NCBI GenBank assembly: GCA_964016885.1
Contig: OZ024740.1
Location: 159,588,001-159,652,000, forward strand
From: Eledone cirrhosa
Taxonomy: Eukaryota
DNA: 64,000 bases
Reading direction: 5' to 3'
How positions within the stretch are numbered: the stretch's first letter is position 1; every line of letters starts with the position of its first letter. Shown here piece by piece: positions 1 through 30,629 of this stretch. The notes beneath the pieces were generated by a model. The model saw only the letters and a program-made list of their open reading frames with translations. It was not told the origin of the DNA and did no database searches. The position numbers and the translations under genes are program-made.

Positions 1-1213
1 AAAGTTCTAGTTTGTAGGAAAGAAAACAAGGCGGCGGTCCCTTCTGGGAAATGGTCGTGCTCGGTGTGTAGGAAAGGCGTAGGTAGAAACTCCATTTTAT
101 GTCCTAAATGCAAAGTATGGGTGCATAAAAGATGTAGTGGGATCACAGGTAAGCTAACTAAGAACATAGATTTTACATGTGGCCGGTGTTCTGGTGCAAT
201 AAGTAGCAGCAAGTGCCCACAAAATACTAGCTCTTTCAATTGCGCAGAGGGTTCTATAGAAATAGTGGACAGCTTCCGTTACCTGGGCGATAAAATCAGC
301 AGTGGCGGAGGGTGCTCTGAAAGTACAGTAGCTAGAGTCAGAACTGGTTGGAAAAAGTTCAGAGAGCTTATACCACTATTAGCTGCTAAAGGGTTCTCCC
401 TAAAAATGAAAGGCAGGTTGTACGATGCCTGCATACGAACAGCAATGTTGCATGGCAGTGAGACCTGGGCATTGTGTGCAGAGGATATACGCAGACTAGA
501 GAGGAACGAAGCTTGCATGCTCCGCTGGATGTGTAACAGTAATATACGTGAACGGGAAAGCATAAACGAACTAAGGAAAAAATTAGAGATAAGAGGGATC
601 AGATGTTGTTTACTCGAGAGAAGGCTACGTTGGTATGGACACGTGATGCGCATGAAAGTCGATAGCTGTATAACAAAGTGCAGGGCAATAAAGATAGACG
701 GTAGCCACGGAATAGGCAGACCTAGAAAAACCTGGGACGAGCTGATAAACTCCGACCTCACACACTTACACCTCTCCAAGACAATGTCACTGGACCGAGA
801 TCTTTGGCGGTACTCAGTAACAGAGAAGACCCGCCTTGCCAGTAGGCATCTCTAACAAAATACACCCCGTCCCACCACCACCACCCCCACCCCATCCACA
901 CCACCCCGTTCTATGTAAAGTTATGTTGGTGCCGCGCCATCCAGCCCGAAACAAATGAGATCGTGTAGGTGTCACGACAAAAAAAACACACAGTCCACGC
1001 TGTAATGTGGCCGTGTAGGCAACACGGTAAAAACCTCCCAGACCCACACTGTAAATGTGGTTGGTGTTAGGAAGGGCATCCAACTGTAGAAAACCTGCCA
1101 GACAGTCCTATGCGAGCAAGACAATCACTCTTGCCTCAAGTGGGACTACCCCCGTCCAAACCCATGCAAGCGTGGAACACAGACGTTAAACGTTGATGAT
1201 GATGATGATGATG
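1..1213 (+). mobile_element. Young RTE-clade LINE, 3' part (RT C-terminus with PHD-like finger, 3' UTR, (GAT)n tail); runs off window start
   Basis: ORF 64-855 has FRYLGD, LHGSETW, RLRWYGHVMR, GRPRKTW motifs typical of RTE ORF ends; (GAT)n tail at ~1195-1213; near-identical to copies at 17.6k, 38.3k and 44.4k. Confidence 0.93.
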
Positions 1214-1555
1214 ATATACATATATATAGTATATATATATATATAGTATATATATATATGTTTATAAATATATACCATTCAATTATTGAGGTCATCATTT
1301 TAATAATATTTACCGGCACACAAATCTCATGGCTTGTGCATAGATTAAAATCCATTATTGTATTCTATGTATTTTCTTTTGTTTTGTTGTGGTGACTTCC
1401 CATCTGTCAGGGTAGTCTGTGGTTTTGTCTTATTTCAAGGATATTGGAAAGTCATAGTTTCTTTGTGTTGGTGCGTGAAATTTTTGGTTTATCATTAGCA
1501 TGATCTAAACTAATTTTTGTATATCTATTTTTATATATTTTTATATATATATATG

Positions 1556-1856
1556 GAGGCACATGGCTTGGTGGTTGGAGCATTGGCCTTGCAATCGAAG
1601 GGTTGTGGGTTCAATTCTCGGACCGGGTGATGTGTTGTTTCCTTGAGCAGGACACTTTATTTCATATTGCTCCAGTTTACTCAGCTGTAGAAATGAGATG
1701 ATAGGGACTGGGGTCCCTATCATCTCATTTCTGAGTAAACTGGAGCAATGTGAAATGGGGTGTCTTGCTCGGGGACGCAACACATCGCTCGGACTGAGAA
1801 TTGAACTCACAACCTTTTGTTTGCAAGGCTAATGCTCTAACCACTGGGCCATGTGC

Positions 1857-1859
<3 letters not shown>
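1556..1859. repeat. Fold-back inverted repeat made of two tail-to-tail halves of a tRNA-derived SINE
   Basis: Arms of ~150 bp centred on ATAGGGAC-tggg-GTCCCTAT (1701-1720); each arm matches SINE copies at 5291, 19470 and 41657; tRNA-like A/B-box head at the outer ends. Confidence 0.92.
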
Positions 1860-1891
<32 letters not shown>

Positions 1892-1972
1892 CTATATATA
1901 TATATATATATACTATATATATATATATATACTATGTATATACTATATATATATATATATATATATAATCGA

Positions 1973-2010
<38 letters not shown>

Positions 2011-2074
2011 TATATATATATATATATACTATATATACTATATATATATATACTATATATACAATTTTCTTTTT

Positions 2075-2293
2075 TTAATCGATCGACTTTCGTCAAATCG
2101 GACCGAGGAAACAATGTTTCCATTGGTCTTTCCAATTGCTAATACTATCTATCGGTCGCAACTCCAGGTAGAAGAAGCAACGTGAAATAAAGTGTCTTGC
2201 TCAAGGACATAACGCATCGCCTGGTCCAGGAATCGAACTCACAACCTTACGATTGCGAATCCAATTCTCTAACCACTCAGCCACACGCCTTCA
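2075..2293 (-). mobile_element. tRNA-derived SINE (related subfamily)
   Basis: Minus strand reads TGGCTGAGTGGTTAGAG...GTGAGTTCGATTCC (A and B boxes) followed by CCTTGAGCAAGACACTT. Confidence 0.8.
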
Positions 2294-2461
2294 CATATAC
2301 AATATATATATACTATATAAACTATATATATATACTATATATACTATATATACTATATATATATATACTATATATACTATATATATATATATATATATAT
2401 ACTATATATACAATATATATATATTTATATACTATATATACTATATATATATATATATATA

Positions 2462-2496
<35 letters not shown>

Positions 2497-2501
2497 ATAT
2501 A

Positions 2502-2537
<36 letters not shown>

Positions 2538-2922
2538 TATATATACTATATATATATATATACGATATATATATATATAATATATGTATATATACTATAT
2601 ATATACTATATATATATACTATATATATACTATATATATATATATATACTATATATATATATTATATATATATATATATACTATATATATATATATATAT
2701 ATACTATATATATATATATATAGTATATAATCTAATGGGCAGTATATATAATATATATATATCTATATATATATACTATATATAAATATATATATATATA
2801 TAAATATATATATATATAGTATATATGTATATATATATAAATACTATATTATATTTAGAGATTAGACTCATAGTCGTTTACAATTAATCAGCTCGAAGAA
2901 AGAGGCATTTCTGAGCAGTGAA

Positions 2923-3478
2923 ATACAAGTTATATATTAATATATATGATAAACACAAGACGTGTTTGTATTTTAACAGACAAGGTTGGCCAGCATGAAG
3001 TGAACTAGTTGAAGTGAATACAGTTTGTCTGTCTCGATATGGTCAATAGGGACAGGCTTATATTGGCAAAAGCCGTGATTCCAGGACAAATTTGAATTTC
3101 AAAATCCAGACCCGCTCCATGGATGAATTTGAGCTTCGAAACACAAATATGTTTCGCAACGATGGTACATGAATTGAAGAATAATGAGAATCAAAATGGA
3201 GTTGAAATAAAAAGTGAAATATCCAAATTCATGTACCATCGTTGCGAAACATATTTGGGTTTCGAAGTTCAAATTCATCTAGGGAGCGGGTTTGGATTTT
3301 GAAATTTGAATTTGTCCAGGAATCGCGGCTTTTGCCAATATAAGCTTGTCTTTGTTGACTATATCGAGACGGACAAGTTGTATTCACTTTAGTTGGTCTG
3401 TTTCATGCTGGCTAACTTTGTCTGTTACAATACAAACACGTTTTGTGTTTATCATATATATTAATATATAAGTTGTAT
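2923..3478. repeat. Long inverted repeat, 253 bp arms, 50 nt loop, no indels
   Basis: Position x pairs with 6401-x from 2923/3478 to 3175/3226; 30 mismatches counted by hand. Confidence 0.95.
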
Positions 3479-4240
3479 ATATAAATATATATATATAGTA
3501 TATATATATAAAAATATATATACTATGTATATATAAATATATATATATACTATATATTTATATACTATATATACAATATATATATATACTATATATACTA
3601 TATATATATACTATATATACTATATATACTATATATACTATATATATATATATACTATATATACTATATATATATATATATACTATATATACTATATATA
3701 TATACTATATATATATATATATATATACCATATATATATATACCATATATATATATACTATATATATATATATAGTATATATATATACTATATATACTAT
3801 ATATATATATACTATATATATATATATATATATATACCATATATACTATATATATATATATATATATATACTATATATATATACTATATATACTATATAT
3901 ATATATACTATATATATATATATACAATATATACTATATATACTATATATATATATATACAATATATATATATATATATAGTATATATGTATATATATAA
4001 ATATATATATATATATATAGTATATATGTATATATATAAATATATATATATATATAGTATATATGTATATATATAAATGTATATATATAGTATATATATA
4101 TAGTATATTTATATATAGTATATATGTATATATATAAATATATATATATATAGTATATATGTATAAATATAAATATATATATATATAGTATATATATATA
4201 TGTATAGTATATATATATAAATATAAATATATATATAAAT

Positions 4241-4275
<35 letters not shown>

Positions 4276-4294
4276 GTGTATATATATATATATA

Positions 4295-4371
<77 letters not shown>

Positions 4372-4393
4372 TATATACATATAGTGTATATAT

Positions 4394-4424
<31 letters not shown>

Positions 4425-4470
4425 GTGTATATATATATATATATATATAGTGTATATATATATATATATA

Positions 4471-4508
<38 letters not shown>

Positions 4509-4660
4509 TATATATATATATATATAGTATATATATATATATATATAGTATATATATATAGTTTATATATATATATATAGTATATATATATAGTATATAT
4601 ATATATAGTATATATATATATATAGTATATATATATATATAGTATATATGTATATATATA

Positions 4661-4771
<111 letters not shown>

Positions 4772-5290
4772 TATATATATATATATATATATATAGTATA
4801 TATATATAAAGTATATATATATATATATAGTATATATATATATATATAGTATATATATAGTATATATATATGTATAATATATATATATATAGTATATATA
4901 TATATAGTATATATATATATATAGTATATATATAGTATATGTATATATATAGTATATATATATATATAATATATATATATATAGTATATATATATATAGT
5001 ATATATATATATAGTATATATATAGTATATGTATATATATAGTATATAAATATATATAGTATATATATATATATCGTATATATATATGATATATATATAG
5101 TATATATATATATATATAGTATATCTATATAGTATATATATATATATATATAGTATATATATATAATATATATATATGTAGTATATATATATATATATAA
5201 ATATATATATATATAGTAGTATATATATATATATAGTATATATATATATATAGTATATATATATAGTATATATATATATATAAATAAATA

Positions 5291-5590
5291 TGTTGAGAGT
5301 TCTATTCTCAGACCGGGTGATGTGTTGTTTCCTTGACCAAGACACTTTATTTCACATTGCTCCAGTTTACTCAGCTGTAGAAATGAGATGATAGGGACTG
5401 GGGTCCATATCATTCCACTGCAAAGTGGTCGTGGAGGTGCCACGGCAAAAAAACACCCAGAACTCACTGTAAATGAGGTTGGTGTTAGGAAGGGCATCCA
5501 GCTGTAGAAATCAAGCCAAAATCAGTTCCCGTCCCACCCTTGCAAGCAGGGAAAAAACGGACGTAAAATGAAATGAAATGAAAATGAAAT
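5291..5590 (+). mobile_element. tRNA-derived SINE, 5'-truncated, (GAAAT)n tail
   Basis: Same body as copies at 19470 and 41657; AGGAAGGGCATCCAGCTGTAGAAA module; tail at 5567-5590. Confidence 0.85.
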
Positions 5591-5597
5591 ATATGTG

Positions 5598-5684
<87 letters not shown>

Positions 5685-5701
5685 ATATATATATGTATAT
5701 A

Positions 5702-5734
<33 letters not shown>

Positions 5735-5736
5735 AA

Positions 5737-5768
<32 letters not shown>

Positions 5769-5797
5769 GTGTATATATATATATGTATGTATGTATG

Positions 5798-5832
<35 letters not shown>

Positions 5833-5850
5833 AATTATATATATATATAT

Positions 5851-6507
5851 ATCATCATCATCATCATCATCAACGTTTAACGTCCGTGTTCCACGCTTGC
5901 ATGGGTTTGGACGGGGGTATTCCCACTTGAGGCAAGAGTGATTGTCTTGCTCGCATAGGACTGTCTGGCAGGTTTTCTACAGTTGGATGCCCTTCCTAAC
6001 ACCAACCACATTTACAGTGTGGGACTGGGAGGTTTTTACCGTGTTGCCTACACGGCCACATTACAGCGTGGACTGTGTGTTTTTTTGTCGTGACACCTAC
6101 ACGATCTCATTTGTTTCGGCCTGGATGTTGTGGCACCAACATAACTTTACATAGGAGGGGGTGGTGTGGATGGGGTGTGGGTGGTGGGACAGGGGTGTAA
6201 TTTGTTAGAGATGCCTACTGGCTGTAGTAGGTTTTACTATGTATTTAGGTAAGGCGGGTCTTCTCTATTACTGAGTACTGCCAAAGGTCTTGGTCTAGTG
6301 ACATTGTCTTGGTGAGGTGTAAGTGTGTGAGGTCGGAGTTTATCAGCTCATCCCAGATTTTTTCTGGGTCTGCCTATTCCGTGGCTACCGTCTATCGTTA
6401 TTGCCCTGCACTTTGTTATACAGCTATCGTCCTTCATGCGCATTACGTGACCATACCAACGTAGCCTTCTCTCGAGTAGACAACATCTGATCCCTCTTAT
6501 TTCTAAT
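5851..6507 (-). mobile_element. Young RTE LINE, short 5'-truncated copy
   Basis: Reverse complement of the 3' end of the element at 1-1213; (ATC)n tail; both ends abut TA microsatellite. Confidence 0.9.
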
Positions 6508-6514
6508 ATGTATG

Positions 6515-6561
<47 letters not shown>

Positions 6562-6748
6562 ATATGTATATATATATATATATATGTATTAAGGATACTA
6601 TTTATGGTGTATGTATGTAATAAAACCTTTTATGGTAATATATTTTTTATACAAACCTTAAATAGTGAAAGATAGTCATTAATTACTATCTTATTACGAG
6701 TAAGATAAATAGCTCAATGTAATAACATCGGTTGTTTTACAGTGCAGT

Positions 6749-7442
6749 TATATAGAGATTACAATAATCAAAGTTCAGTTTAAATCATTTATTTGCTTAC
6801 AATTGTTTCCTCCAAACGGGGGTTTGGATTCTTCGGAGCAACTATTTAGTGATCTATAACATACTTGACCTCCTTTTCAACACAAGAGACATATAAAACA
6901 TATGCACATATTGATCCACAGTGGGATGACATTCATCAAAATGATATAGCATGGCAATTTACATATAAAGGTTAAAGGATAAAAATAAAGATAAAAATGA
7001 AAATAAAAATGAAGTGTTGGCAGTCTATGAAGATAAAGCAAGAGGAAAGTTTAGAATAGTCAGTGTATGAAACAATCTCACGTGTAGCATGCACGCGTGC
7101 ATGCTACACGCGAGATTGTTTCATACACTGACTATTCTAAACTTTCCTCTTGCTTTATCTTCATAGACTGCCAACACTTCATTTTTATTTTCATTTTTAT
7201 CTTTATTTTTATCCTTTAACCTTTATATGTAAATTGCCATGCTATATCATTTTGATGAATGTCATCCCACTGTGGATCAATATGTGCATATGTTTTATAT
7301 GTCTCTTGTGTTGAAAAGGAGGTCAAGTATGTTATAGATCACTAAATAGTTGCTCCGAAGAATCCAAACCCCCGTTTGGAGGAAACAATTGTAAGCAAAT
7401 AAATGATTTAAACTGAACTTTGATTATTGTAATCTCTATATA
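6749..7442. repeat. Near-perfect 694 bp palindrome with no spacer, probably Penelope-like-element-derived
   Basis: Centre GCACG|CGTGC at 7095/7096; one mismatch seen (7080 vs 7111); each arm holds a hammerhead-like motif. Confidence 0.9.
7350..7398 (+). ncRNA. Type I minimal hammerhead ribozyme-like motif (mirror copy at 6793-6841, minus strand)
   Basis: TTGCT-CCGAAGA-a-TCCAAAC-cccc-GTTTGGA-g-GAAA-CAATTG-TA-AGCAA: stems I and II, palindromic stem III ACAATTGT; U4C core variant. Confidence 0.65.
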
Positions 7443-7517
7443 TATGTATGTATATATATATGTATGTATATATATATATATGTATATATATACATACATA
7501 CATTTATATATATATAC

Positions 7518-7581
<64 letters not shown>

Positions 7582-7584
7582 ATA

Positions 7585-9312
7585 TCTATCTATCTAACTA
7601 TCTAAGGCGGGTAAAATTCCCGAGATCCATGGACGAGTTCTCTCCAGCGGTCTCTGTCCCTCATTATCGCTGCCATATCCTGCATCTCCAACAGACCAGT
7701 GTCTGTCCTTAGGGCATCAACATATGTTAACCTTGGTCTTACTCTTCTAGTGTGTCCATGTAGGGGCTCCCAAAGGAGCACTGAGTGCAATGTCAACTCT
7801 GGATGTCGGTGAGCATGTCCAGCCAACCTCAGTCTCCTCTGTGTCACTTTTGAGCTGACTTTTGGGATGCTCCCATACAGCTCTGAGTTTTTCATCCTCA
7901 GTGTATACTGATTAATGTTCAGAGCCATCCTCAGCATTCTCGTGTAGCACCCATCCACCATCTGAGTGAGTCTCTTGGTCAGTGTCCAAGTCTCAGACCC
8001 ATACAGCAGCACAGACTCCACTACAGCAATGAAGAGGCGGATTTTCAGGTCTCTACGAAGGTCCGACTTCCACACCGATCTCAAGCTGTGACACGCCGCC
8101 CAGGCCTTGCTCTTCCTCTCAACCACATCATCTTCCGTATTCCCAATCTTTGCTCCCAAATACAGGAAGTCCTCAACCAATTCCAGCAGCTTCCCGCCTA
8201 CATTAGTGATCCCCTCTGGCTTCTGAACATTCTCTACCAGATATTTTGTTTTAGTCTCATTCATTCTCAGCCCCACACTCATCGACACAGTCTCAACCTC
8301 CCGCATCAAATCCTCTGCCTCCTTCACTGTATTTGTCACCAAAACTATGTCGTCGGCAAATTCAGCATCCGATACCTTTTTCGCCCCAACTCTCCTGCTC
8401 TGAGCCGGTGCTACAGTAAAGCCAGTGTCCTGGTGTTTCTCCAGTGCAAGGCGCATACAATAGTCCACTACGATGATAAAAAGGTAGGGAGCCAATGTAT
8501 CTCCCTGGAGCACTCCAGCCAGTATCTCAAAGAACTCTGTCATCCCATCAGGTGTAATGACTTGGGCTTTGGTGTTGGTGTAGAGCAGTGATATCAGGTC
8601 CACTATCCTCTTGGGGATTCCATAAGCCTGTAAGATCTTCATCAGGCAGTAACGGTCCACAGAATCAAAGGCCTTCCTAAAGTCAATGAAAACCATGACC
8701 GCAGGAAGGCACATTGCTCTAGCTCCCTCTAATATCCTCCTCAGCATCAGGATGTGACTGGTGGTTGATCTACCCTCTCTGAAGCCGTTCTGGTTGTACC
8801 TGAGCTTCTTCTCCATCTCAGGCTGGATCCTGTTAAGAATCATCCTGTTGAGGGTCTTTGCCACAAGTGACGTCAGTGAGATCCCCCGGTAGTTGTTGGT
8901 GTTAGAGAGATCTCCCTTCTTTGGCACTGGGACGATGTTACTGATCCTCCACTGGTTCGGGGCAACTCCTTTCTCCAGTGCCCCGTTACAGAACCCCAGG
9001 ATGATATCATCAAAATCACACCTCTTCATCACCTCTGATGCCACTCCATCTTCTCCATGAGCCTTGCCCTCCTTGATCTTCTTCTTGGCTCTCTGAAGCT
9101 CCTCTCTGGTGAAGGGCTCTGTCTCAACATCCAGTTCCTCAAACAGCCGCCTGATCTCCCCAGTGCTCCGGGCTGTGGAGGGTGGCTCTCCTAGTAGGGT
9201 CCTAAAATGGTCTAGCCATTTCCTCTTCCTATCCTCGGGCCCCGTTCCCTGGATCTGACTCGAACACCTTTTCTTCCTCCCTGTGATCTCGTTGATGATC
9301 ATCCAGCTCTCC
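7585..9312 (-). mobile_element. Second RTE-like LINE family, 5'-truncated, uninterrupted RT ORF (7602-9302)
   Basis: 566 aa: [52 protein letters not shown]; (TAGA)n-like tail; flanked by microsatellites. Confidence 0.92.
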
Positions 9313-9314
9313 TT

Positions 9315-9377
9315 ACATGTATATATATATATATGTATATGTATGTATGTATGTATATATATATATATGTATGTATG

Positions 9378-9408
<31 letters not shown>

Positions 9409-9519
9409 ATATATATATGTATATGTGTATATATATATGTATGTATGTATGTATATATATATATGTATGTATGTATATATATATATGTATGTATGTATAT
9501 ATATATATGTATGTATGTA

Positions 9520-9555
<36 letters not shown>

Positions 9556-9711
9556 TGTGTATGTATGTATGTATGTATGTATGTATATGTATGTATGTAT
9601 GTATGTATATATATATATGTATGTATGTATATATATATATGTATGTATGTATATATGTATATGTGTATATATATATGTATGTATGTATATATATATATGT
9701 ATGTATGTATA

Positions 9712-9747
<36 letters not shown>

Positions 9748-9759
9748 TGTGTATGTATG

Positions 9760-9791
<32 letters not shown>

Positions 9792-9941
9792 TATGTATGT
9801 ATGTATATATATGTATGTATGTATATATATGTATGTATGTATGTATATATATGTATGTATGTATATATATATATATATGTATGTATGTAAATATATATGT
9901 ATGTATATATATATATATATGTATGTATGTATATATATATG

Positions 9942-10025
<84 letters not shown>
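9315..10025. repeat. (TATG)n/(TA)n compound microsatellite
   Basis: Seen directly. Confidence 0.95.
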
Positions 10026-10027
<2 letters not shown>

Positions 10028-10079
10028 TTTCTGAATTTGTTTAGTAAGATTCTTTATCTGAAAACGTGTGTTGAAACCG

Positions 10080-10603
10080 ATATTGTTATGCTTTGGGAGG
10101 GTCATGTTGCCAATAAGAAGCACACGCACCAGTGGCTTTCACTCCAATTTATTATAAATTAAATTTATAAATTTAAGAATTTATAAATTTCCGGTTGGTT
10201 AGTTGGTTCCATAACCGGACGGTCGTTCATATATTGTCAAAGTTCTTTCGTCACACATTCTGTGACATCTTCAGTGACTGGGGATTCTTTTCTTTGTTTT
10301 GTGCCTCTCCTTTGTTCTGTCCTACGCTATCTTGTTTTTGTGTGTTTTCAAAAACAAGATGGCATAGGACAGAACAAAGAAGAGGCATAAAACAAAGAAA
10401 AGAATCCCCAGTCACTGAAGAGGGCACAGAATGTGTGACGACAACCGTCCGGTTATGGAATGAACCAACCAACCAGAAATTTATAAATTTTTAAATTTTT
10501 AAATTTTTAAATTTATAAATTTAATTTATAATAAATTGGAGTGAAAGCAACTGGTGCGTGTGCTTCTTATTGGCAACATGACCCTCCCAAAGCATAACAA
10601 TAT
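10080..10603. repeat. Fold-back inverted repeat (~260 bp arms, 8 nt loop at 10341-10348) inside TA microsatellite
   Basis: Arms complementary with indels; the outer left part resembles 37655-37735 in reverse. Confidence 0.9.
10236..10278 (-). ncRNA. Type I minimal hammerhead ribozyme-like motif
   Basis: Minus strand: GTCA-CTGAAGA-t-GTCACA-gaatg-TGTGAC-GAAA-gaac-TT-TGAC; the opposite arm has lost the GAAA/stem III half. Confidence 0.6.
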
Positions 10604-12472
10604 ATATATATATATTTATATCATCATATAAATACACACATGCATACATAGACACATAGACATATAAAGCCTCTACTCTATGTATTGCAGACATTATTCT
10701 GATACTTCAAATACCAACAGACGTAATACGATTATAATTAAAATCTCTGGTGTATTGCCATTAAAATCTCTGGTGGTTCCATCTTTGGAGAAATTCAATT
10801 TATCTTCACATAAAACTAAACATGTTTACCATGTTTAGTGAAGAATTAAGTTTTGTTAAGTGATTTCTCTCTATTAATCTCAAAGAAAGTATTTTTGAAA
10901 ATTCTTCTCATTCTATCGGAATGTGTCTATATCCAGACTTTCAAAGTGGTGTGTATATGTGTGGAGTAGGGAGGTTGTATGTATTTATATGTATATATAT
11001 ATATGCATATGTGTGTGTATATAAATGAATGTCTATCAATATATGTATATAAATACATGTATATATAGATATTTCCCCCCTTTCACTCTTTCTCTTTTGC
11101 GCTCTCTTTACACACACATACACACATCTATATCTATATATATATGTATAGTTATTAGTTATGTGTGCATATATCTATGTACATGTTTAGTTATACACTC
11201 ATGTATATATATTTTATTGACGATTTCAAACTTTAAACCATTATAATTTCAAACACTGAATCTGTTGAGGTGGTTCTATTTATTTAGCTCCCCCCCCCCC
11301 CCCCCACACACACATACACACACATTCTCTCTCTCTTTCTCTTTCGCTTCAACACATTTTATAAATATGTTAGATTTATGAAATTATTAGTATATGTGTA
11401 TAATATGTATGTGTGTGTCTGTGTATTTAGGAACTACAGATAACCTTCATTTAATATTTCAGTTTTAAACATGAAATTTGTAAACTTTATGAATGTAAAT
11501 ATTACATCAGACAAACATGTACCACAGATTCACACCAGCTATCGATGCATCAACTAAAAGGAAGCTAAGGCAAAGTAAAAATTATGAATACATAGACAAA
11601 TCTTAATTGATAACACAAATGGAATAGGCCAACATCAGATTTGACTGTGCTCCAATTGTTTAATCAACCAAACAACTTTCTCATACTATTGATGTTTCAG
11701 TAGCTGAGCATTACTCAGACCCATGTTCCTTTAACCCTTTAGCATTTAAACCAGCCAAATCCAGCCAGAATTCTCTCACCTCTTTCTGTACAAACCAGAA
11801 GTAACTGGCTGCTTATACTGATGTTAAGGTATTGTTCTAAAAATATATAATATCAAAATCTCATAGCTTTGATATTATGTGAGATAATTATGTGAGATAA
11901 AGCCTTTACCATGAAAATATAATAGAATATATAGAGTAAAGTGAATACTAAATGGTTAATATACTTTTCAGGGAGATTTCATCACGACAAAGTGTGTAAC
12001 AAGGCTGGCTCTTTGAATTATAGGTACAGTCCATCTGATGGGCTTCCAACAATTTCTATTTGTCCAAATTCACTCACAAGGCAGGAGTCAATCCAAGGCT
12101 GTGGTAAATGACACTTGCCAAAAATGTCACAAAGTGGGATCAAACCTGGATCCCCATAATTGCGAAGTGAATTTCATACCCATTCATCAATGTTGCATCC
12201 ATGGTAACACAAATTATTTTTAATGGAAATCCTAAATGAACTAGAAGATTAATCATAGAAGATATATTCGTAGCTAAATCATCAATTTTTACATCCATGC
12301 TGGTAGAGATAGGATAAATTTTTTGGGGGAAGACTTTTATACATAGATCCCCTTCCTAATGCCAACACTCACTCTTTTTTTTTAAGTGACAGAATTTTGA
12401 GTAGCAGCATCTGTGGTTATTCATGACATAAAAATATCACTGTCTGCTATATTGAATGAAAAAAGAAAAGAT

Positions 12473-12514
<42 letters not shown>

Positions 12515-13791
12515 ACACACACACACATATACATCTATGTATGTCAGACCTCCTTACAATTTCTTGTCACCAAATTCACTCTCAATGCATTGGTTTGTAT
12601 GAGACTGGTACCCAAGAGATAATCCAGTGAAATAGATTCTAATGCCATATAACTACAAAAGGAACTTCATAACTATATAGCCATACTTGCATCTAAAATA
12701 TGATAAAAAATTCAACATATTCATTATGTCTCTATAGTGTGATTTTCTATCTGCAGCTATGGATATATAGAGTGACATGTGCATGGAAAAAGTTCCTGGC
12801 CTTGCGTGGTGTGCTAATGTAGAAGGAATTAACACTGAAACTAAAGGGAAGGTTGTATGTTGCATGTGTGCGAAGTGCTATGATTGATAGGAGTGATACA
12901 TGGATGATGTGTATAGAGCCAGAAAGAAGGTGAGAAAGAAAGAAAGAATATGATAATAGTCCAGTGGATGAGTGAAGTATTGTTGAGAGAGAAAACAAAC
13001 AATGGGTTGCCGAAAATGGCCAGGAGGATGGTGTGAGGGGAGGCAGGCAATAGGGAAAAACAAGAAGCTTCTCAAGGGGCCCACAAAGCTAACCCCTGAT
13101 TTAGCATGAAAGATGAACTTAAAATACATGCTGTTGTTTTTTGTCATATATCTACTGCTCCTCTGTAAATTTGAAATCTCTATGAATAGAGAGATTAGCA
13201 ACATGTTCCTTCCCTCTTCTCCAGGGGCATAGCTCAATGATAGGCATAGCTGCCTCTTGTATATACTAAAAATATATTTCAAGAGAATTATCATAATGAT
13301 GATGACGATAATAATGATTTAAACAATGATTATGATGATAGTGTCAATATTACTGATTAGGATAATTGATGATGATGATGACTGCAAATATGAGATATTT
13401 GGATGCTAATAGCAACAATGATGACAGTTCACAGAGTAGTGATAATATTAGTGGCATAATGACAGTTAATAATGATGGCTTTGATGGTATTAGTGATGAC
13501 GATGATAGCTGTGGTTGTGCTGATGTTGATGATTACAATAGTGATTATTATGGTGATGACAATAATGATACTAAGAATGATTTTTTTTTCATTTCATGAA
13601 TTCTTTTTCTTCTTTTTACTTTGTGTCTTTTTGTGTGTGTTTATTGATTTTTTCTTGATTTCATAATTTGATAATTATTTAAATTGCTTAATTAATTTTC
13701 CATTAATTTTACATTACCAATTTATTTACTATTAATTAATTAATTTATTTAATTAATTATTTATTCATCTATTTTATTTTATTTATTTCAG

Positions 13792-14033
13792 AAGGAAAGG
13801 TGGAGGTAAACTTCAACATCAGTGGAAACATACAGGTGAAAAATATAAAACTGATGAACAGTGATTTACAAGCTGGAGGTGCATGGAAACCTTCACATTG
13901 TATCTCACGGCATCGTGTGGCTGTCATAATCCCTTACCGGGACAGGCACCAGCATCTTCTGACATTACTTTATCACCTGGTGCCAATTCTTCGAAGGCAA
14001 CAATTGGATTTTAGGATTTTCGTTGTTGAACAG
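13792..14033 (+). CDS. Internal coding exon of a beta-1,4-galactosyltransferase / GalNAc-transferase (GT7, B4GALT/bre-4 family)
   Basis: GGAWKPSHCISRHRVAVIIPYRDRHQHLLTLLYHLVPILRRQQLDFRIFVVEQ matches the GT7 N-terminal catalytic region; T-rich tract plus AG at 13790-13791; donor CAG|GCAAGT. Confidence 0.92.
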
Positions 14034-15189
14034 GCAAGTGATTAATGTTTCATTTCCATGTCTTTGCATTCTTTGTCTTGTTTTCAAAGGAATAACATAT
14101 AGCAGAGAATATAAGATTTCTTGAGCAATGGTATAATTGTTTTCATCCTCCTTGTTATCTCTGCTACCACCAACAAGAACTTCATTTGCTATTTCTTTTT
14201 CAGCTAACATTTGGTATCCAGATCCATCCTTTTTTTGTCTTCTAGCCAAATTCTAACTTCCTCATCTGTAATATGTTTACCTTATCCTCTGAAAATCTCC
14301 TGCCTTGAAGTCTATAAAATCAGATTCTACCTCCATCTAATACAGAAGTTTTTTTCCAAGCATTGACATCAGTGCCTTCCATGAAGCTGCTGAACTGAAT
14401 ATTGCAGACTTAAGATTGTAGTTCTTGATGTTATTCAGAGTTCTTTGTTCTCCCGTATCTCTCTTAAGATTGTAATCTATCACCAAGAGAACTTCATCCA
14501 AATGGTTTTATTGGTGTTATATATTGCATACTATAGTTATACTTTAATCTAATGAGTGAATTTTGTAGGTAAAGTTGATGACAAAACCATGTATTTTATA
14601 TTACCAAAATGCTGATGATTAATTTGGTTAGCAGAAACATTGGCTAAGATTAGCAACACCTTCACCTCATCAGCAGAGCATTTGAGAACATTTTCCTTAT
14701 ATTTACATACAAGTATGAAATTCGATAAATAAAAACAGTAAATAGATTTATACAGTTCAAGTATGATTTCTTCAAATGGTAATAAGGCACAAGTAGGTAG
14801 TACATTGTGTTTTTCAAAACTCATTAATATGCTGACTTCCCCACTGCCACTTACTTCAAAAAGTAAATGATGTCTATGTTTGTGTAACACATGCCAGAAA
14901 ACAATCCTTATTTAACCCTTTACCATTTACATTACTCTATATTTACTATTGTATTTTCACGGAAAAGGCATTATCTCACATAATATCGAATCTATGAGAT
15001 TTGTGATATAGTTTATTTTGAGAACCATATGTTACAGTCGTTATCAGGGGCCAGGTATGGTCAGTTTGAACAGAAAGAGGTGAGAGAATTCTGGCCAGAT
15101 ATGGCCGGTTTAAATACTGAAGTGTTAATTTCTGATTGGTTATTGAGACTTCATTTTTAAGAATTTGTGTATTCTGGAATTGTAGTGAC

Positions 15190-22614: not shown

Positions 22615-22906
22615 TAAAAGAGAAAACACACGTAAGCATAAAAAAAAGGATTTTATCCAGGTATTTACGACCGTTTCATTGGTAAGCGCAAACTTATATC
22701 GCTATACTGCAAATAGCAGCCACTCGATAATAACTGTTATTCACCTCCAAATTTTCATTATTTTGAAAATTTGGTGGTGAATAACAGTCATTATCGAATG
22801 GCTGGTATCTGCAGTATAGCGATATAAGGTTGCGCTTACTAATGAAACGGTCGTAAATACCTGGATAAAATCCTTTTTTTAATGCTTACATGTGTTTTCT
22901 CTTTTA
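22615..22906. repeat. Fold-back inverted repeat, 143 bp arms, 6 nt loop
   Basis: x pairs with 45521-x; about 9 mismatches, no indels. Confidence 0.92.
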
Positions 22907-24924: not shown

Positions 24925-27900
24925 ACACACACACAGATATATCACCAACACACACACACAGACATATCACCAACACACACACAGACATATCACCAACACA
25001 CACACACAGACATATCAACAACACACACACAGATATATCACCAACACACACACACAGACATATCACCAACACACACACAGACATATCAACAACACACACA
25101 CAGACATATCACCAACACACACACAGACATATCAACAACACACACACAGACATATCACCAACAGACACACAGACATATCATCAACACACACACAGACATA
25201 TCACCAACACACACACACAGACATATCACCAACACACACACAGACATATCACCAACAAACACACACAGACATATCACCAACACACACAGACATATCACCA
25301 ACACACACAGACATATCACCCACACATATCACCAACACACACACACATACATATCACCAACACACACACACACAGACATATCACCAACAAACACACACAG
25401 ACATATCACCAACACACACACAGACATATCACCAACACACACACACAGACATATCACCAACACACACACACAGACATATCACCAACACACACACAGACAT
25501 ATCATCAACACACACATAGACATATCACCAACACACACACACAGACATATCACCAACAAACACACACAGACATACCACCAACACACACAGACATATCACC
25601 CACACATATCACCAACACACCCACACATACATATCACCAACACACACACACAGACATATCACCAACAAACACACACAGACATATCACCAACACACACACA
25701 GACATATCACCAACACACACACACAGACATATCACCAACACACACACACAGACATATCACCAACACACACAGACATATCACCCACACACACATAGACATA
25801 TCACCAACGCACACACATATGTATCACCAACACACACAGACAGACATATCACCAACACACACACGGACATATCAACAGCACACACACAGACATATCACCC
25901 ACACACACACAGACATATCACCAACACACACACATACATATCACCAACACACACACACAGACATATCACCAACACACAGACATACATATCACCAACACAC
26001 ACACACACAGACATATCACCAACACACACACACACACAGACATATCACCAACACACAGACAGACATATCACCAACACACACACAGACATATCACCAACAC
26101 ACACACAGACATATCACCAACACACACACACAGACATATCACCAACACACACACACAGACATATCACCACACACACAGACAGACATATCGCCAACACACA
26201 CACACAGACATATCACCAACACACACACACAGACATATCACCACACACACAGACAGACATATCGCCAACACACACACACAGACATATCACCAACACACAC
26301 ACAGACATATCAGCAACACACACACACAGACATATCACCAACACACACACAGACATATCACCAACACACACACAGACATATCACCAACACACACACACAG
26401 ACATATCAACAACACACACACAGACATATCACCAACACACACACAGACATATCACCAACACACACACACAGACATATCACCAACACACAGACAGACATAT
26501 CAACAACACAGACAGACATATCACCAACACACACACACACAGACATATCACCAACACACAGACAAACATATCACCAACACACACATACAGACATATCACC
26601 AACACACACACACACATATCACCAACACACACACACAGACAAATCACCAACAGACACAGACATATCACCAACACACAGACAGACATATCACCAACACACA
26701 CACAGACATATCACCAACACACACACGCACACAGACATATCACCAACACACACACACACATATCACCAACACACACACACACACACACACACAGACATAT
26801 CACCAACACACACACACACAGACATATCACCAACACACACACACATACATATCACCAACACACACACAGACATATCACCAACACACACACAGACATATCA
26901 CCAACACACACACACAGACATATCACCAACACACACACAGACATATCACCAACACACACACACAGACATATCACCAACACACACACAGACATATCACCAA
27001 CACACACACACAGACATATCACTAACACACACACACAGACATATCACCAACACACACACACAGACATATCACCAACACACAGACAGACATATCACCAACA
27101 CACACACACACACAGACATATCACCAACACACAGATACAGACATATCACCAACACACACACAGACATATCACCAACACACACACACACACAGAGATATGA
27201 CCAACACACACACAGACATATCACCAACACACACACACACAGACATATCACCAACACACACACACATACATATCACCAACACACACACAGACATATCACC
27301 AACACACACACAGACATATCACCAACACACACACACAGACATATCACCAACACACACACAGACATATCACCAACACACACACACAGACATATCACCAACA
27401 CACACACAGACATATCACCAACACACACACACAGACATATCACTAACACACACACACAGACATATCACCAACACACACACACAGACATATGACCAACACA
27501 CACACAGACATATCACCAACACACACACACACACAGACATATCACCAACACACACACAGACATATCACCAACAGACAGACAGACATATCACCAACACACA
27601 CACAGACATATCACCAACACACACACGCACACAGACATATCACCAACACACACACAGACATATCACCAACACACACACGCACACAGACATATCACCAACA
27701 CGCACACAGACATATCACCAACACACACACACAGACATATCACCAACACACACACAGACATATCACCAACACACACACACAGACATATCACCAACACACA
27801 CACACTGACATATCACCAACACACAGACAGACATATCACCAATACACACATAGACATATCACCAACACACACACACACACATATCACCAACACACACACA

Positions 27901-29380
27901 GACATATCACCAACACACACACAGACATATCACCAACACACACACAGACATATCACCAACACACACACACACACATATCACCAACACACACACAGACATA
28001 TCACCAACACACACACACACACATATCACCAACACACACACAGACATATCACCAACACACACACACATATCACCAACACACACACAGACATATCACCAAC
28101 ACACACACAGACATATCACCAACACACACACACACACATATCACCAACACACACACAGACATATCACCAACACACACACACAGACATATCACCAACACAC
28201 AGACAGACATATCACCAACACACACACACACACAGACATATCACCAACACACACACAGACATATCACCAACACACACACACAGACATATCACCAACACAC
28301 AGACATATCACCAACACACACACACACACAGACATATCACCAACACACACACAGACATATCACCAACACACACACACAGACATATCACCAACACACAGAC
28401 ATATCACCAACACACACACACACACAGACATATCACCAACACACACACACACATATCACCAACACACACACACAGACATATCACCAACACACAGACATAT
28501 CACCAACACACACACAGACATATCACCAACACACACACACAGACATATCACCAACACACACACACACACAGACATATCACCAACACACACACAGACATAT
28601 CACCAACACACACACAGACATATCACCAACACACACACAGACATATCACCAACACACACACACACATATCACCAACACACACACAGACATATCACCAACA
28701 CACAGACAGACATATCACCAACACACACACACACAGACATATCACCAACACACACACAGACATATCACCAACACACACACAGACATATCACCAACACACA
28801 CACACACACAGACATATCACCAACACACACACACACATATCACCAACACACACACACAGACATATCACCAACACACAGACATATCACCAACACACACACA
28901 GACATATCACCAACACACACACAGACATATCACCAACACACACACAGACATATCACCAACACACACACACAGACATATCACCAACACACACACACACACA
29001 GACATATCACCAACACACACACACACATATCACCAACACACACACACAGACATATCACCAACACACACACAGACATATCACCAACACACACACAGACATA
29101 TCACCAACACACAGACATATCACCAACACACACACAGACATATCACCAACACACACACAGACATATCACCAACACACACACACACACAGACATATCACCA
29201 ACACACACACAGACATATCACCAACACACACACAGACATATCACCAACACACAGATACAGACATATCACCAACACACACACACAGACATATCAACAGCAC
29301 ACACACAGATGTATCACCAACACACACACAGACATATCACCAACACACACACGCAGACATATCACCAACACACACATATA
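24925..29380. repeat. Minisatellite: GACATATCACCAA core plus variable (CA)n, ~18-32 bp units
   Basis: Seen directly; roughly 180 units; source of the T/H-rich pseudo-ORFs. Confidence 0.97.
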
Positions 29381-30629
29381 TATATTAATGCACACGCACA
29401 CGCACACACACATACACACACACATGCACACACACACATGAACACACACACACACACAGCCACATGAACACACACACACACACACACACACACACGATGC
29501 TGCTGGTGTCTGATATTACAAGAAGAAATCTTCTTTTAGCAAACCACTTGACATTTTAGAATTACACCATCATCACTCTCCTCCTCACAATCATCATCAT
29601 CATCATCATCATCATCACCACCATGATGCCCATCGTCATCATCACCACCATGACTATTATTCTCAGCACCACCATCAGCAGCAGCATCACAACCATCAAC
29701 AAAATTATCTCCAGCATGATCCTCATCATCATCATCACTGTTACTACTATCATATCAACACCATCAGCCTCCCTATTCCTATTAGCTTCATCCTTCCACA
29801 TCAACATTTTCCTCTTCCCCACCGCTCCATCACTACCAATAACACTTTTCCTACCTCCAACAAACCATTACTCCTCACCTCCCTTGTTGGGGTGTATCAA
29901 AAGCTTATATGCTTCATTGGACATGGTCTTATATATATATATACACACAGACACACACATACACAAACATTGATATACATACACACATATATTCATGTAC
30001 ATATATACAGAGCCATACACAAACGATGGCATCCTAAACATCATATCCTAACCAGCTCTGTTAAGTAATCAAAATTAATGCTTCACTAGATATGGACATT
30101 CACAAAGACACACACACATATATGAACACAACACACACAACACACTCTTGCACAGTCACTCATATAATACACATACAACATACACATTCTTGTACTATAT
30201 AGTACACATACAATACACACACACACACTAACTCAATACTCACACTTGTACAACTACACATAATAAATATACACACACATATGTATACACACTGCTGAAG
30301 ACTTAGAAATAACTATCCTCACATCTATTCTGGACACTGAAAATGAATATGATTATTATCTTGGGGAGTATGGTAGAAATAAACACACATACATGCACAT
30401 GCGCACACACATACACATGCACACACACATAATAAATGGATCTTCCATCAGTTTTGATGATGAGTATTCCAGCTATTCTAGCAAATGAACTTCCTACCTA
30501 TTCATAGTAATATTGTGTAAGTGGTTGAGTATTTCCACTAATATATGTATCCTTAACGTATCTTGAGATAGTACCAGCTGGGCACTCTGTGTGACAAGAG
30601 TGGATCTTTGAAATACCTATCTATATAAT

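What the first reader, a model, noticed from the sequence alone, without database searches (positions are those of the whole stretch)
1556..3478. Both biased hairpins are adjacent and same-stranded while three other fold-backs are not: one edited RNA written back?
Seen: the two hairpins lie ~1.1 kb apart with identical + polarity, which is also the sense strand of the B4GALT exon. The unpaired SINE between them keeps AAATAAAG and CTCAAGG unaltered. Internal controls lack the bias: 6749-7442 (1 A.C), 10080-10603 (about 4 G.T to 5 A.C), 22615-22906 (1 G.T to 4 A.C). Inference: a single ~2 kb (TA)n-rich transcript, edited only in its duplexes, was integrated by retrotransposition or by RNA-templated repair in a fragile TA tract. 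That would be an RNA-editing-to-germline route.
Basis: inference. Interest (0 to 1): 0.8.

Follow-up and report, generated by a model that had tools for sequence, protein, structure and literature searches.

The report
Two RNA-edited hairpins copied into DNA
Two neighbouring DNA hairpins in an intron of an octopus-type genome carry 39 one-way A-to-G changes of the kind RNA-editing enzymes make, while a related copy elsewhere on the chromosome lacks them, so one edited RNA was likely copied back into the genome.

Summary
Observation confirmed. Against their repeat families, hairpin 1 (a SINE fold-back) has 15 A>G of 83 A and hairpin 2 (a fold-back of a TA-inserting repeat) 24 of 174, all on the + strand, versus one T>C. 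G is depleted 5' of the changed sites. Unpaired sequence carries at most 3 in about 191 A. These are the only 2 of 136 hairpins biased in 1.85 Mb scanned. An unedited paralogue of the left 550 bp lies 63 Mb away and shares a rare TA-tract variant that spans 1214-5290, so the segment looks like one transposed unit. The paralogue lacks hairpin 2, so a full donor was not found. The middle SINE has its own target-site duplication and is a weak control. The self-complementary TA tracts are almost unedited, which is unexplained. No reads confirm the edited letters here, but another biased hairpin that I checked recurs at 40 loci, so such marks exist as DNA. Best reading: one ADAR-edited RNA, retro-inserted (0.55). 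In-situ repair is less likely. The scan has already noted similar edited hairpins several times in this genome.

The parts
1..1213 (+). 3' part of a near-intact LINE (open frame of 995 aa from 2,132 bases upstream of the window to 855; (GAT)n tail); no A>G bias; candidate RT source or later insertion
   Evidence: RVT_1, Exo_endo_phos_2, PHD
1214..1266 (.). TA tract shared with the paralogue; left edge of the unit
1267..1545 (+). Two-copy flank (second copy C1:222417327-222417604, minus, 95%); unpaired, no A>G bias
1556..1858 (+). Hairpin 1: tRNA-type SINE 5' part folded back at its internal palindrome (loop about 1709-1712); 15 A>G of 83 A, 4 C>T, 0 T>C
1868..2056 (.). C-interrupted TA tract (rare variant), almost no extra G
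2066..2294 (-). Middle SINE, unedited (0 of 66 A), flanked by the 9-bp duplication ATATACAAT (2057-2065 and 2295-2303)
2304..2844 (.). C-interrupted TA tract (rare variant), almost no extra G
2845..2922 (+). Unpaired head of the hairpin-2 element; no private A>G (the 2 differences are family polymorphisms)
2923..3478 (+). Hairpin 2: arms 2923-3175 and 3226-3478 of a ~560-bp tandem/inverted repeat family that inserts in TA; 24 A>G of 174 A, 1 T>C; junction found once in the assembly
3479..5291 (.). Long TA tract of the same rare variant, C-interrupted then G-interrupted; right edge of the unit
6749..7442 (.). Control: near-perfect 347-bp palindrome, unbiased
10080..10603 (.). Control fold-back, unbiased; same family as the element upstream of the paralogue
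13791..14036 (+). Exon of a B4GALT / bre-4-like gene spanning about 1.7 Mb; the hairpins lie in the ~295-kb stretch before it
22615..22906 (.). Control fold-back, unbiased

Best explanation
Both hairpins carry one-strand A-to-G changes confined to their paired arms, most likely written by ADAR on a single RNA that spanned both and that was probably reverse-transcribed and inserted, as part of a ~4-kb TA-rich unit, into an intron of the B4GALT-like gene. Shown: direction, strand, confinement, 5' context, rarity, an unedited paralogue of the left part, and a shared rare TA variant. Inferred steps: (1) the two fold-backs first existed as unedited DNA at a donor, the C1:222.4 Mb complex or a lost intermediate; (2) a + strand transcript covering at least 1570-3400 was edited at about 15% of stem adenosines; (3) a retroelement RT (a TA-targeting Penelope-like element, or the adjacent LINE) copied it, primed in the self-complementary TA tract, in a germ-line cell; (4) the donor later lost the end of hairpin 1 through hairpin 2 by deletion; (5) the middle SINE and the LINE may be later arrivals.
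For: 39 A>G vs 1 T>C on + (p=7e-11). Edited sites have 5' G in 1 of 39 vs 44 of 216 unedited A (p=0.005) and 3' G in 17 of 39 vs 22 of 216. Stem 39 of 255 A vs at most 3 of about 191 unpaired A (p=1e-7). Similar rates in both hairpins (p=0.46). The paralogue has A at all six left-arm sites and at 1757-1759 and shares the fold-back, the flank and the C>T at 1665. Only 2 of 136 hairpins in 1,849,613 bases are biased, and 2 of 28 in the gene region; upper 95% rate 2.2% per hairpin. Rare TA motif: 79 in window 1200-5300, 0 in the rest of the window, 472 around the paralogue, 3 in 1,143,843 background bases. Precedent in this genome: another one-way hairpin inside a multi-kb unit with microsatellite tracts has 40 matches at 94-100%, and 30 of 30 fetched copies carry the bias. 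Penelope-like elements prefer (TA)n, make tandem/inverted insertions and can move host sequence in trans (PMC8557442, passages).
Against: No full donor: the paralogue lacks hairpin 2 and the middle SINE, and the hairpin-2 junction occurs once in the assembly. The TA tracts are predicted 87-89% paired but hold 3, 9 and 3 G where 10% editing would add about 9, 26 and 23. No target-site duplication or poly(A) could be placed for the whole unit. Tracts of the rare variant are insertion hot spots that collect unrelated elements, so hairpin 2 could have arrived alone. The strong 3' G preference differs from the reduced 3' G preference reported for octopus RNA hyper-editing (PMC5625713, passages). 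A few right-arm sites of hairpin 1 (such as 1777 and 1787) could be states of a related SINE subfamily.
Confidence: 0.55

Rival explanations
1. In-situ write-back: both fold-backs inserted here as DNA, and an edited transcript of this locus (host pre-mRNA or LINE read-through) later overwrote about 2 kb by RNA-templated repair or cDNA gene conversion.
For: The edits are on the sense strand of the host gene and of the adjacent near-intact LINE. No donor is needed for the unique hairpin-2 junction. Localised retroprocessing is known in plant mitochondria (PMC4987113, abstract).
Against: It needs a duplication and a separate overwrite that happens to coincide with the duplicated unit. The other 26 of 28 hairpins in the gene region are unbiased. 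The inverted LINE pair 589-1195 / 5865-6505 shows no A>G excess.
Confidence: 0.15
2. Two independent edited RNAs inserted separately into one TA hot spot.
For: The middle SINE inserted independently into the same tract. Such tracts collect many elements. The paralogue lacks hairpin 2. The tracts between the hairpins are unedited.
Against: 0 of 134 other hairpins are biased, including fold-backs of the hairpin-2 family and 0 of 7 hairpins at 20 loci with the same TA variant. The chance of a second biased, same-strand neighbour is about 2% or less.
Confidence: 0.13
3. Assembly artefact, such as polishing with RNA reads.
For: The hairpins are intronic and sense. The triple-edited 21-mer is found once in the assembly. 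The edited letters are not confirmed in reads.
Against: A better ADAR substrate 3.3 kb away (347-bp palindrome) and 25 more hairpins in the gene region are untouched. The same signature is inherited across 30 of 30 dispersed copies of another element, which polishing would not produce.
Confidence: 0.07
4. A DNA-level, strand-biased mutator (deamination in R-loops or extruded hairpins, error-prone fold-back synthesis, or selective retention of G.T).
For: The 4 C>T changes in hairpin 1 also give G.T on +, with no G>A counterpart.
Against: Both arms are changed on one strand, whereas error-prone fold-back synthesis would hit only the new arm. Retention of wobble pairs would not raise A>G to 15% when other changes are near 2%, nor deplete 5' G. 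That ADAR needs an RNA-containing duplex is recalled, not tested.
Confidence: 0.06

Closest known systems
ADAR-type A-to-G hypermutation fixed in retroviral and proviral DNA (Rous-associated virus, avian leukosis virus inverted repeat, HTLV-2, STLV-3, BLV)
   Same: Clustered A-to-G in an inverted repeat, carried from RNA into DNA by reverse transcription (PMC12925331 and PMC8025556, passages).
   Different: Here the substrate is host repeat and flank sequence in a nuclear assembly, two separate hairpins in one unit, with an unedited paralogue; no virus is involved.
APOBEC 'DNA editing' of endogenous LTR retrotransposons
   Same: A deaminase footprint fixed in the genome, detected by one-way, one-strand clusters against family consensus (PMC4866542, PMC2873906, passages).
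   Different: That is G-to-A from editing of cDNA and is reported absent from 19 invertebrates; this is A-to-G restricted to RNA-like stems.
Retroprocessing of edited mRNA in plant mitochondria
   Same: RNA edits become genomic through reverse transcription, often over part of a gene (PMC4987113, abstract).
   Different: C-to-U, organellar, overwriting the source gene; here nuclear, A-to-I, non-coding, and more likely a new insertion.
Penelope-like elements (Naiad and others)
   Same: Tandem/inverted insertions, (TA)n targets, presence in cephalopods, trans-mobilisation of host sequence (PMC8557442, passages); the hairpin-2 family has this architecture.
   Different: No RT or endonuclease was linked to the hairpin-2 family here, and the passages read do not mention editing.

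Membership tests
ADAR-type hyper-editing footprint | One-directional A>G on one strand | tested here: met
   39 A>G vs 1 T>C on +; the paralogue has A at 9 of 9 comparable sites
ADAR-type hyper-editing footprint | Confined to long duplex | tested here: inconclusive
   Met for stems vs unpaired sequence (39 of 255 vs at most 3 of about 191); not met for the self-complementary TA tracts
ADAR-type hyper-editing footprint | G depleted 5' of edited sites | tested here: met
   1 of 39 vs 44 of 216, p=0.005; motif per PMC5625713
ADAR-type hyper-editing footprint | 3' neighbour as reported for octopus (reduced G preference) | tested here: not met
   17 of 39 have 3' G, the vertebrate-like pattern; PMC5625713 gives 20-25% for the group that includes octopus
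ADAR-type hyper-editing footprint | Enzyme dependence; the same sites edited in RNA | not testable with these tools
   No RNA holder listed
Retro-inserted (transduced or trans-mobilised) segment | Unedited donor elsewhere | tested here: inconclusive
   Paralogue of 1214-1768 with the shared TA variant, but without hairpin 2
Retro-inserted (transduced or trans-mobilised) segment | Target-site duplication or tail at the unit's ends | tested here: inconclusive
   Both ends lie in TA tracts
Retro-inserted (transduced or trans-mobilised) segment | Empty-site allele | not testable with these tools
   No related genomes are held
Non-autonomous Penelope-like element (hairpin-2 family) | Tandem plus inverted truncated copies in TA tracts | tested here: met
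Non-autonomous Penelope-like element (hairpin-2 family) | Link to an RT / GIY-YIG partner, or a hammerhead motif | tested here: inconclusive
   No hammerhead family hit in window 1-12000 and no convincing motif in the unit; a partner ORF was not sought
APOBEC DNA editing | G-to-A on the element's sense strand | tested here: not met
   1 G>A in the four arms

The most novel reading that the evidence does not exclude
In octopods, retroelement RTs pick up multi-kb read-through RNAs that include non-element host sequence, after ADAR has edited several of their hairpins, and write them into germ-line DNA. This locus would be a single-molecule fossil of one such RNA with its unedited source partly preserved, and RNA editing would be a recurring source of clustered heritable mutation.
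Probability: 0.5. Interest if true: 0.8.

Novelty: new variant of a known kind. Interest (0 to 1): 0.62.

Why it matters
Cephalopods edit RNA very heavily, and editing is normally taken to be transient. A dated genomic copy of an edited RNA, with an unedited paralogue for comparison, makes the RNA-to-germ-line route testable by genotyping, and gives a per-molecule view of ADAR activity in germ-line cells. No function is claimed for this intronic insertion. The phenomenon is rare per hairpin (0 of 134 others) and has been noted by this scan at other places in the same genome, which lowers the weight of this single case.

Tried and rejected
Reads. The run search listed 5 runs, none on record as RNA, each with at most 0.10 of the words: no RNA holder listed. 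Contigs laid on 2850-3470 showed only family letters at the listed sites. Contigs laid on 1262-1862 gave flank pieces of both paralogues in X1 and X3 but none bridging into the hairpin (the table was cut). Contigs drop rare variants of high-copy repeats, so this says nothing on the edited letters.

Donor search. The hairpin-2 junction was found once. The hairpin-1 junction motif has 593 matches, but of 90 loci examined only the window and the paralogue had two long true arms; most are single SINEs with an inverted loop. Two other copies with the 6-nt deletion are single-arm SINEs. 20 loci with the rare TA variant held neither the flank nor a close hairpin-2 copy. The loci were not examined.

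Method. My BLAST-based hairpin scan missed a hairpin with about 30% mismatches, so the background was redone with a wobble-tolerant scan. The first scan also lost hairpin 2 and gave two spurious hits from TA tracts. The 40 kb around the positive control were targeted and are left out of the background count.

Rfam gave only generic hairpin matches below threshold. A MITE reading of hairpin 2 was dropped once the family proved tandem/inverted. A 3' transduction by the adjacent LINE from the paralogue is not supported, as the paralogue has a different element upstream.

Literature. Ten searches listed no paper reporting ADAR-edited hairpins fixed in a cephalopod genome. The library is partial, no supplements were read, and those of the bioRxiv preprint are closed.

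Full report
Setting. The window is G000:C1:159,588,001-159,652,000 of a 3.0-Gb assembly. The exon at 13791-14036 is 79-82% identical to Octopus B4GALT / bre-4-like proteins, so the organism is taken to be an octopod (inference). Six matched exons of this gene lie on + between 159.31 and 161.02 Mb; the hairpins fall in the ~295 kb between the first two.

Observation. Hairpin 1 has 19 G.T and 0 A.C in its stem, hairpin 2 has 24 and 1. The three named controls are unbiased. The hairpins are 1,064 bp apart.

Direction of change. A G.T pair can come from A>G or from C>T, so I polarised each arm against family copies. Hairpin 1 is the 5' part of a high-copy SINE folded back at an internal palindrome. 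Hairpin 2 is a fold-back within a ~560-bp family that occurs as tandem and inverted truncated copies in TA tracts. Result: hairpin 1 has 15 A>G of 83 A, 4 C>T, 3 transversions, no T>C and no G>A. Hairpin 2 has 24 A>G of 174 A and 1 T>C, after dropping one compensated family polymorphism (2991 / 3410). The family rows were the best hits to the window, which biases towards the window's letters. Edited sites have 5' G in 1 of 39 vs 44 of 216 unedited A, and 3' G in 17 of 39 vs 22 of 216. Depletion of upstream G is the shared ADAR motif; the downstream G is stronger than reported for octopus RNA (PMC5625713, passages). Unpaired parts (flank, middle SINE, head and loop of the hairpin-2 element) carry at most 3 such changes in about 191 A.

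Rarity. A wobble-tolerant scan of 1,849,613 bases (gene region, 60 evenly spaced 10-kb stretches, the paralogue region, family loci, TA-variant loci) found 136 hairpins with arms of 60 bp or more. Two are biased, and they are these two; 28 of the 136 lie in the gene region. A BLAST-based scan agreed. The upper 95% bound is 2.2% per hairpin, so a second biased, same-strand neighbour by chance is about 2% or less.

Paralogue. The 280-bp flank left of hairpin 1 has one other copy in the assembly, at C1:222,417,327-604 (minus, 95%). That locus has the same TA tract, flank, SINE and fold-back, with A at all 9 comparable edited sites; its right arm breaks off after about 60 nt into a TA tract. The 14 differences in the 1267-1545 flank show no A>G bias. 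Contigs of runs X1 and X3 hold both versions of the flank; these runs may be the assembled sample and are not independent support. The paralogue has no middle SINE and no hairpin 2.

One unit. All tracts from 1214 to 5290 are a C-interrupted TA variant: 79 motif hits there, 0 in the rest of the window, 472 over 34 kb around the paralogue, 3 in 1.14 Mb of background. A strict form of the motif marks about 11 loci on C1. This ties both hairpins to one tract lineage. The larger, nested complex at 222.4 Mb is the likelier source (inference). A single deletion from the right arm of hairpin 1 into the tract beyond hairpin 2 would give the paralogue's present form (inference). Hammerhead-like motifs lie on both sides of the paralogue in the same orientation (upstream by regex; downstream by eye in the sequence); cleavage was not tested.

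Against the simple picture. The middle SINE has its own 9-bp target-site duplication and differs from its closest relatives at 2 of 231 sites, so it may post-date the editing. Tracts of this variant collect unrelated insertions. The TA tracts are predicted to pair as RNA but are almost unedited; later tract growth or poor editing of UA helices are untested explanations. The hairpin-2 junction has no second copy. A near-intact LINE lies directly upstream on + ('RTE-like' would be my recalled label), is unedited, and is absent at the paralogue.

Artefact check. Reads could not test the edited letters. At C1:181,208,032-308 a hairpin has 29 one-way mismatches and none of the opposite type, polarising as 27 T>C of 160 T on +. 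It has 40 matches at 94-100% identity over most or all of its length, and 30 of 30 fetched copies carry 13-34 one-way mismatches, on both assembly strands, mostly inside a shared multi-kb unit with microsatellite tracts. So such marks exist as inherited DNA in this genome, and composite units of this size do move.

Mechanism and odds. One edited RNA, retro-inserted: 0.55. In-situ overwrite: 0.15. Two independent edited insertions: 0.13. Artefact: 0.07. DNA-level mutator: 0.06. An ADAR-on-RNA origin in some form: about 0.83. The RT responsible is not identified.

Comparison. It works like ADAR hypermutation fixed in proviral inverted repeats (PMC12925331, PMC8025556; passages) and parallels plant mitochondrial retroprocessing (PMC4987113; abstract and outline). 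It is not APOBEC DNA editing (PMC4866542, PMC2873906; passages). Penelope-like features are from PMC8557442 (passages). The retrozyme preprint 10.64898/2026.07.22.740005 has no occurrence of 'ADAR' in its main text (two passages). PMC11817618, which argues for deaminase-driven reverse-transcription mutagenesis, was seen only in search listings. Ten searches listed no report of this in cephalopods.

Verdict. A real ADAR-type footprint, probably from one molecule. It is a new variant of a known kind, already noted by this scan elsewhere in the genome. This locus adds a two-hairpin unit with host flank and a partial unedited paralogue.

Noticed in passing
G000:C1:159306311-161019026: The B4GALT / bre-4-like gene spans about 1.7 Mb, with stretches of 120-740 kb between matched exons.
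   Followed up: partly
L286:1500-1900 (G000:C1:181207930-181208330) and L287-L315: A strongly one-way-mismatched hairpin inside a multi-kb unit present at 40 or more loci; copies differ in their mismatch counts (13-34), which could reflect continued editing.
   Followed up: partly
window 3479-5291; L266-L285: The rare C-interrupted TA variant often switches to its reverse complement within one tract and marks multi-kb insertion hot spots.
   Followed up: partly
SINE internal palindrome (window 1700-1723): About 500-600 copies match the motif in the orientation expected if the 4-nt loop is inverted; a 6-nt deletion beside it recurs in 3 copies.
   Followed up: partly
window 6749-7442 and upstream 200 kb: Fold-backs are very dense, many with no spacer and near-perfect arms: 28 with arms of 60 bp or more in 304 kb.
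   Followed up: partly
window 1-1213 and L062:7868-10000: LINE with an uninterrupted 995-aa frame, including a PHD-like match after the RT domain; many 94-98% copies nearby.
   Followed up: partly
G000:C1 about 222.428-222.432 Mb: A broken element that by eye resembles a Penelope-like RT plus GIY-YIG coding region, flanked by inverted repeats, 11-14 kb from the paralogue; label recalled, not tested.
   Followed up: no
window 24925-29486: 4.5-kb minisatellite with a 23-bp unit, about 186 copies.
   Followed up: no
L004:2000-2600: Exons encoding Gly-X-Y collagen-like repeats next to a hairpin-2 family copy (by eye).
   Followed up: no
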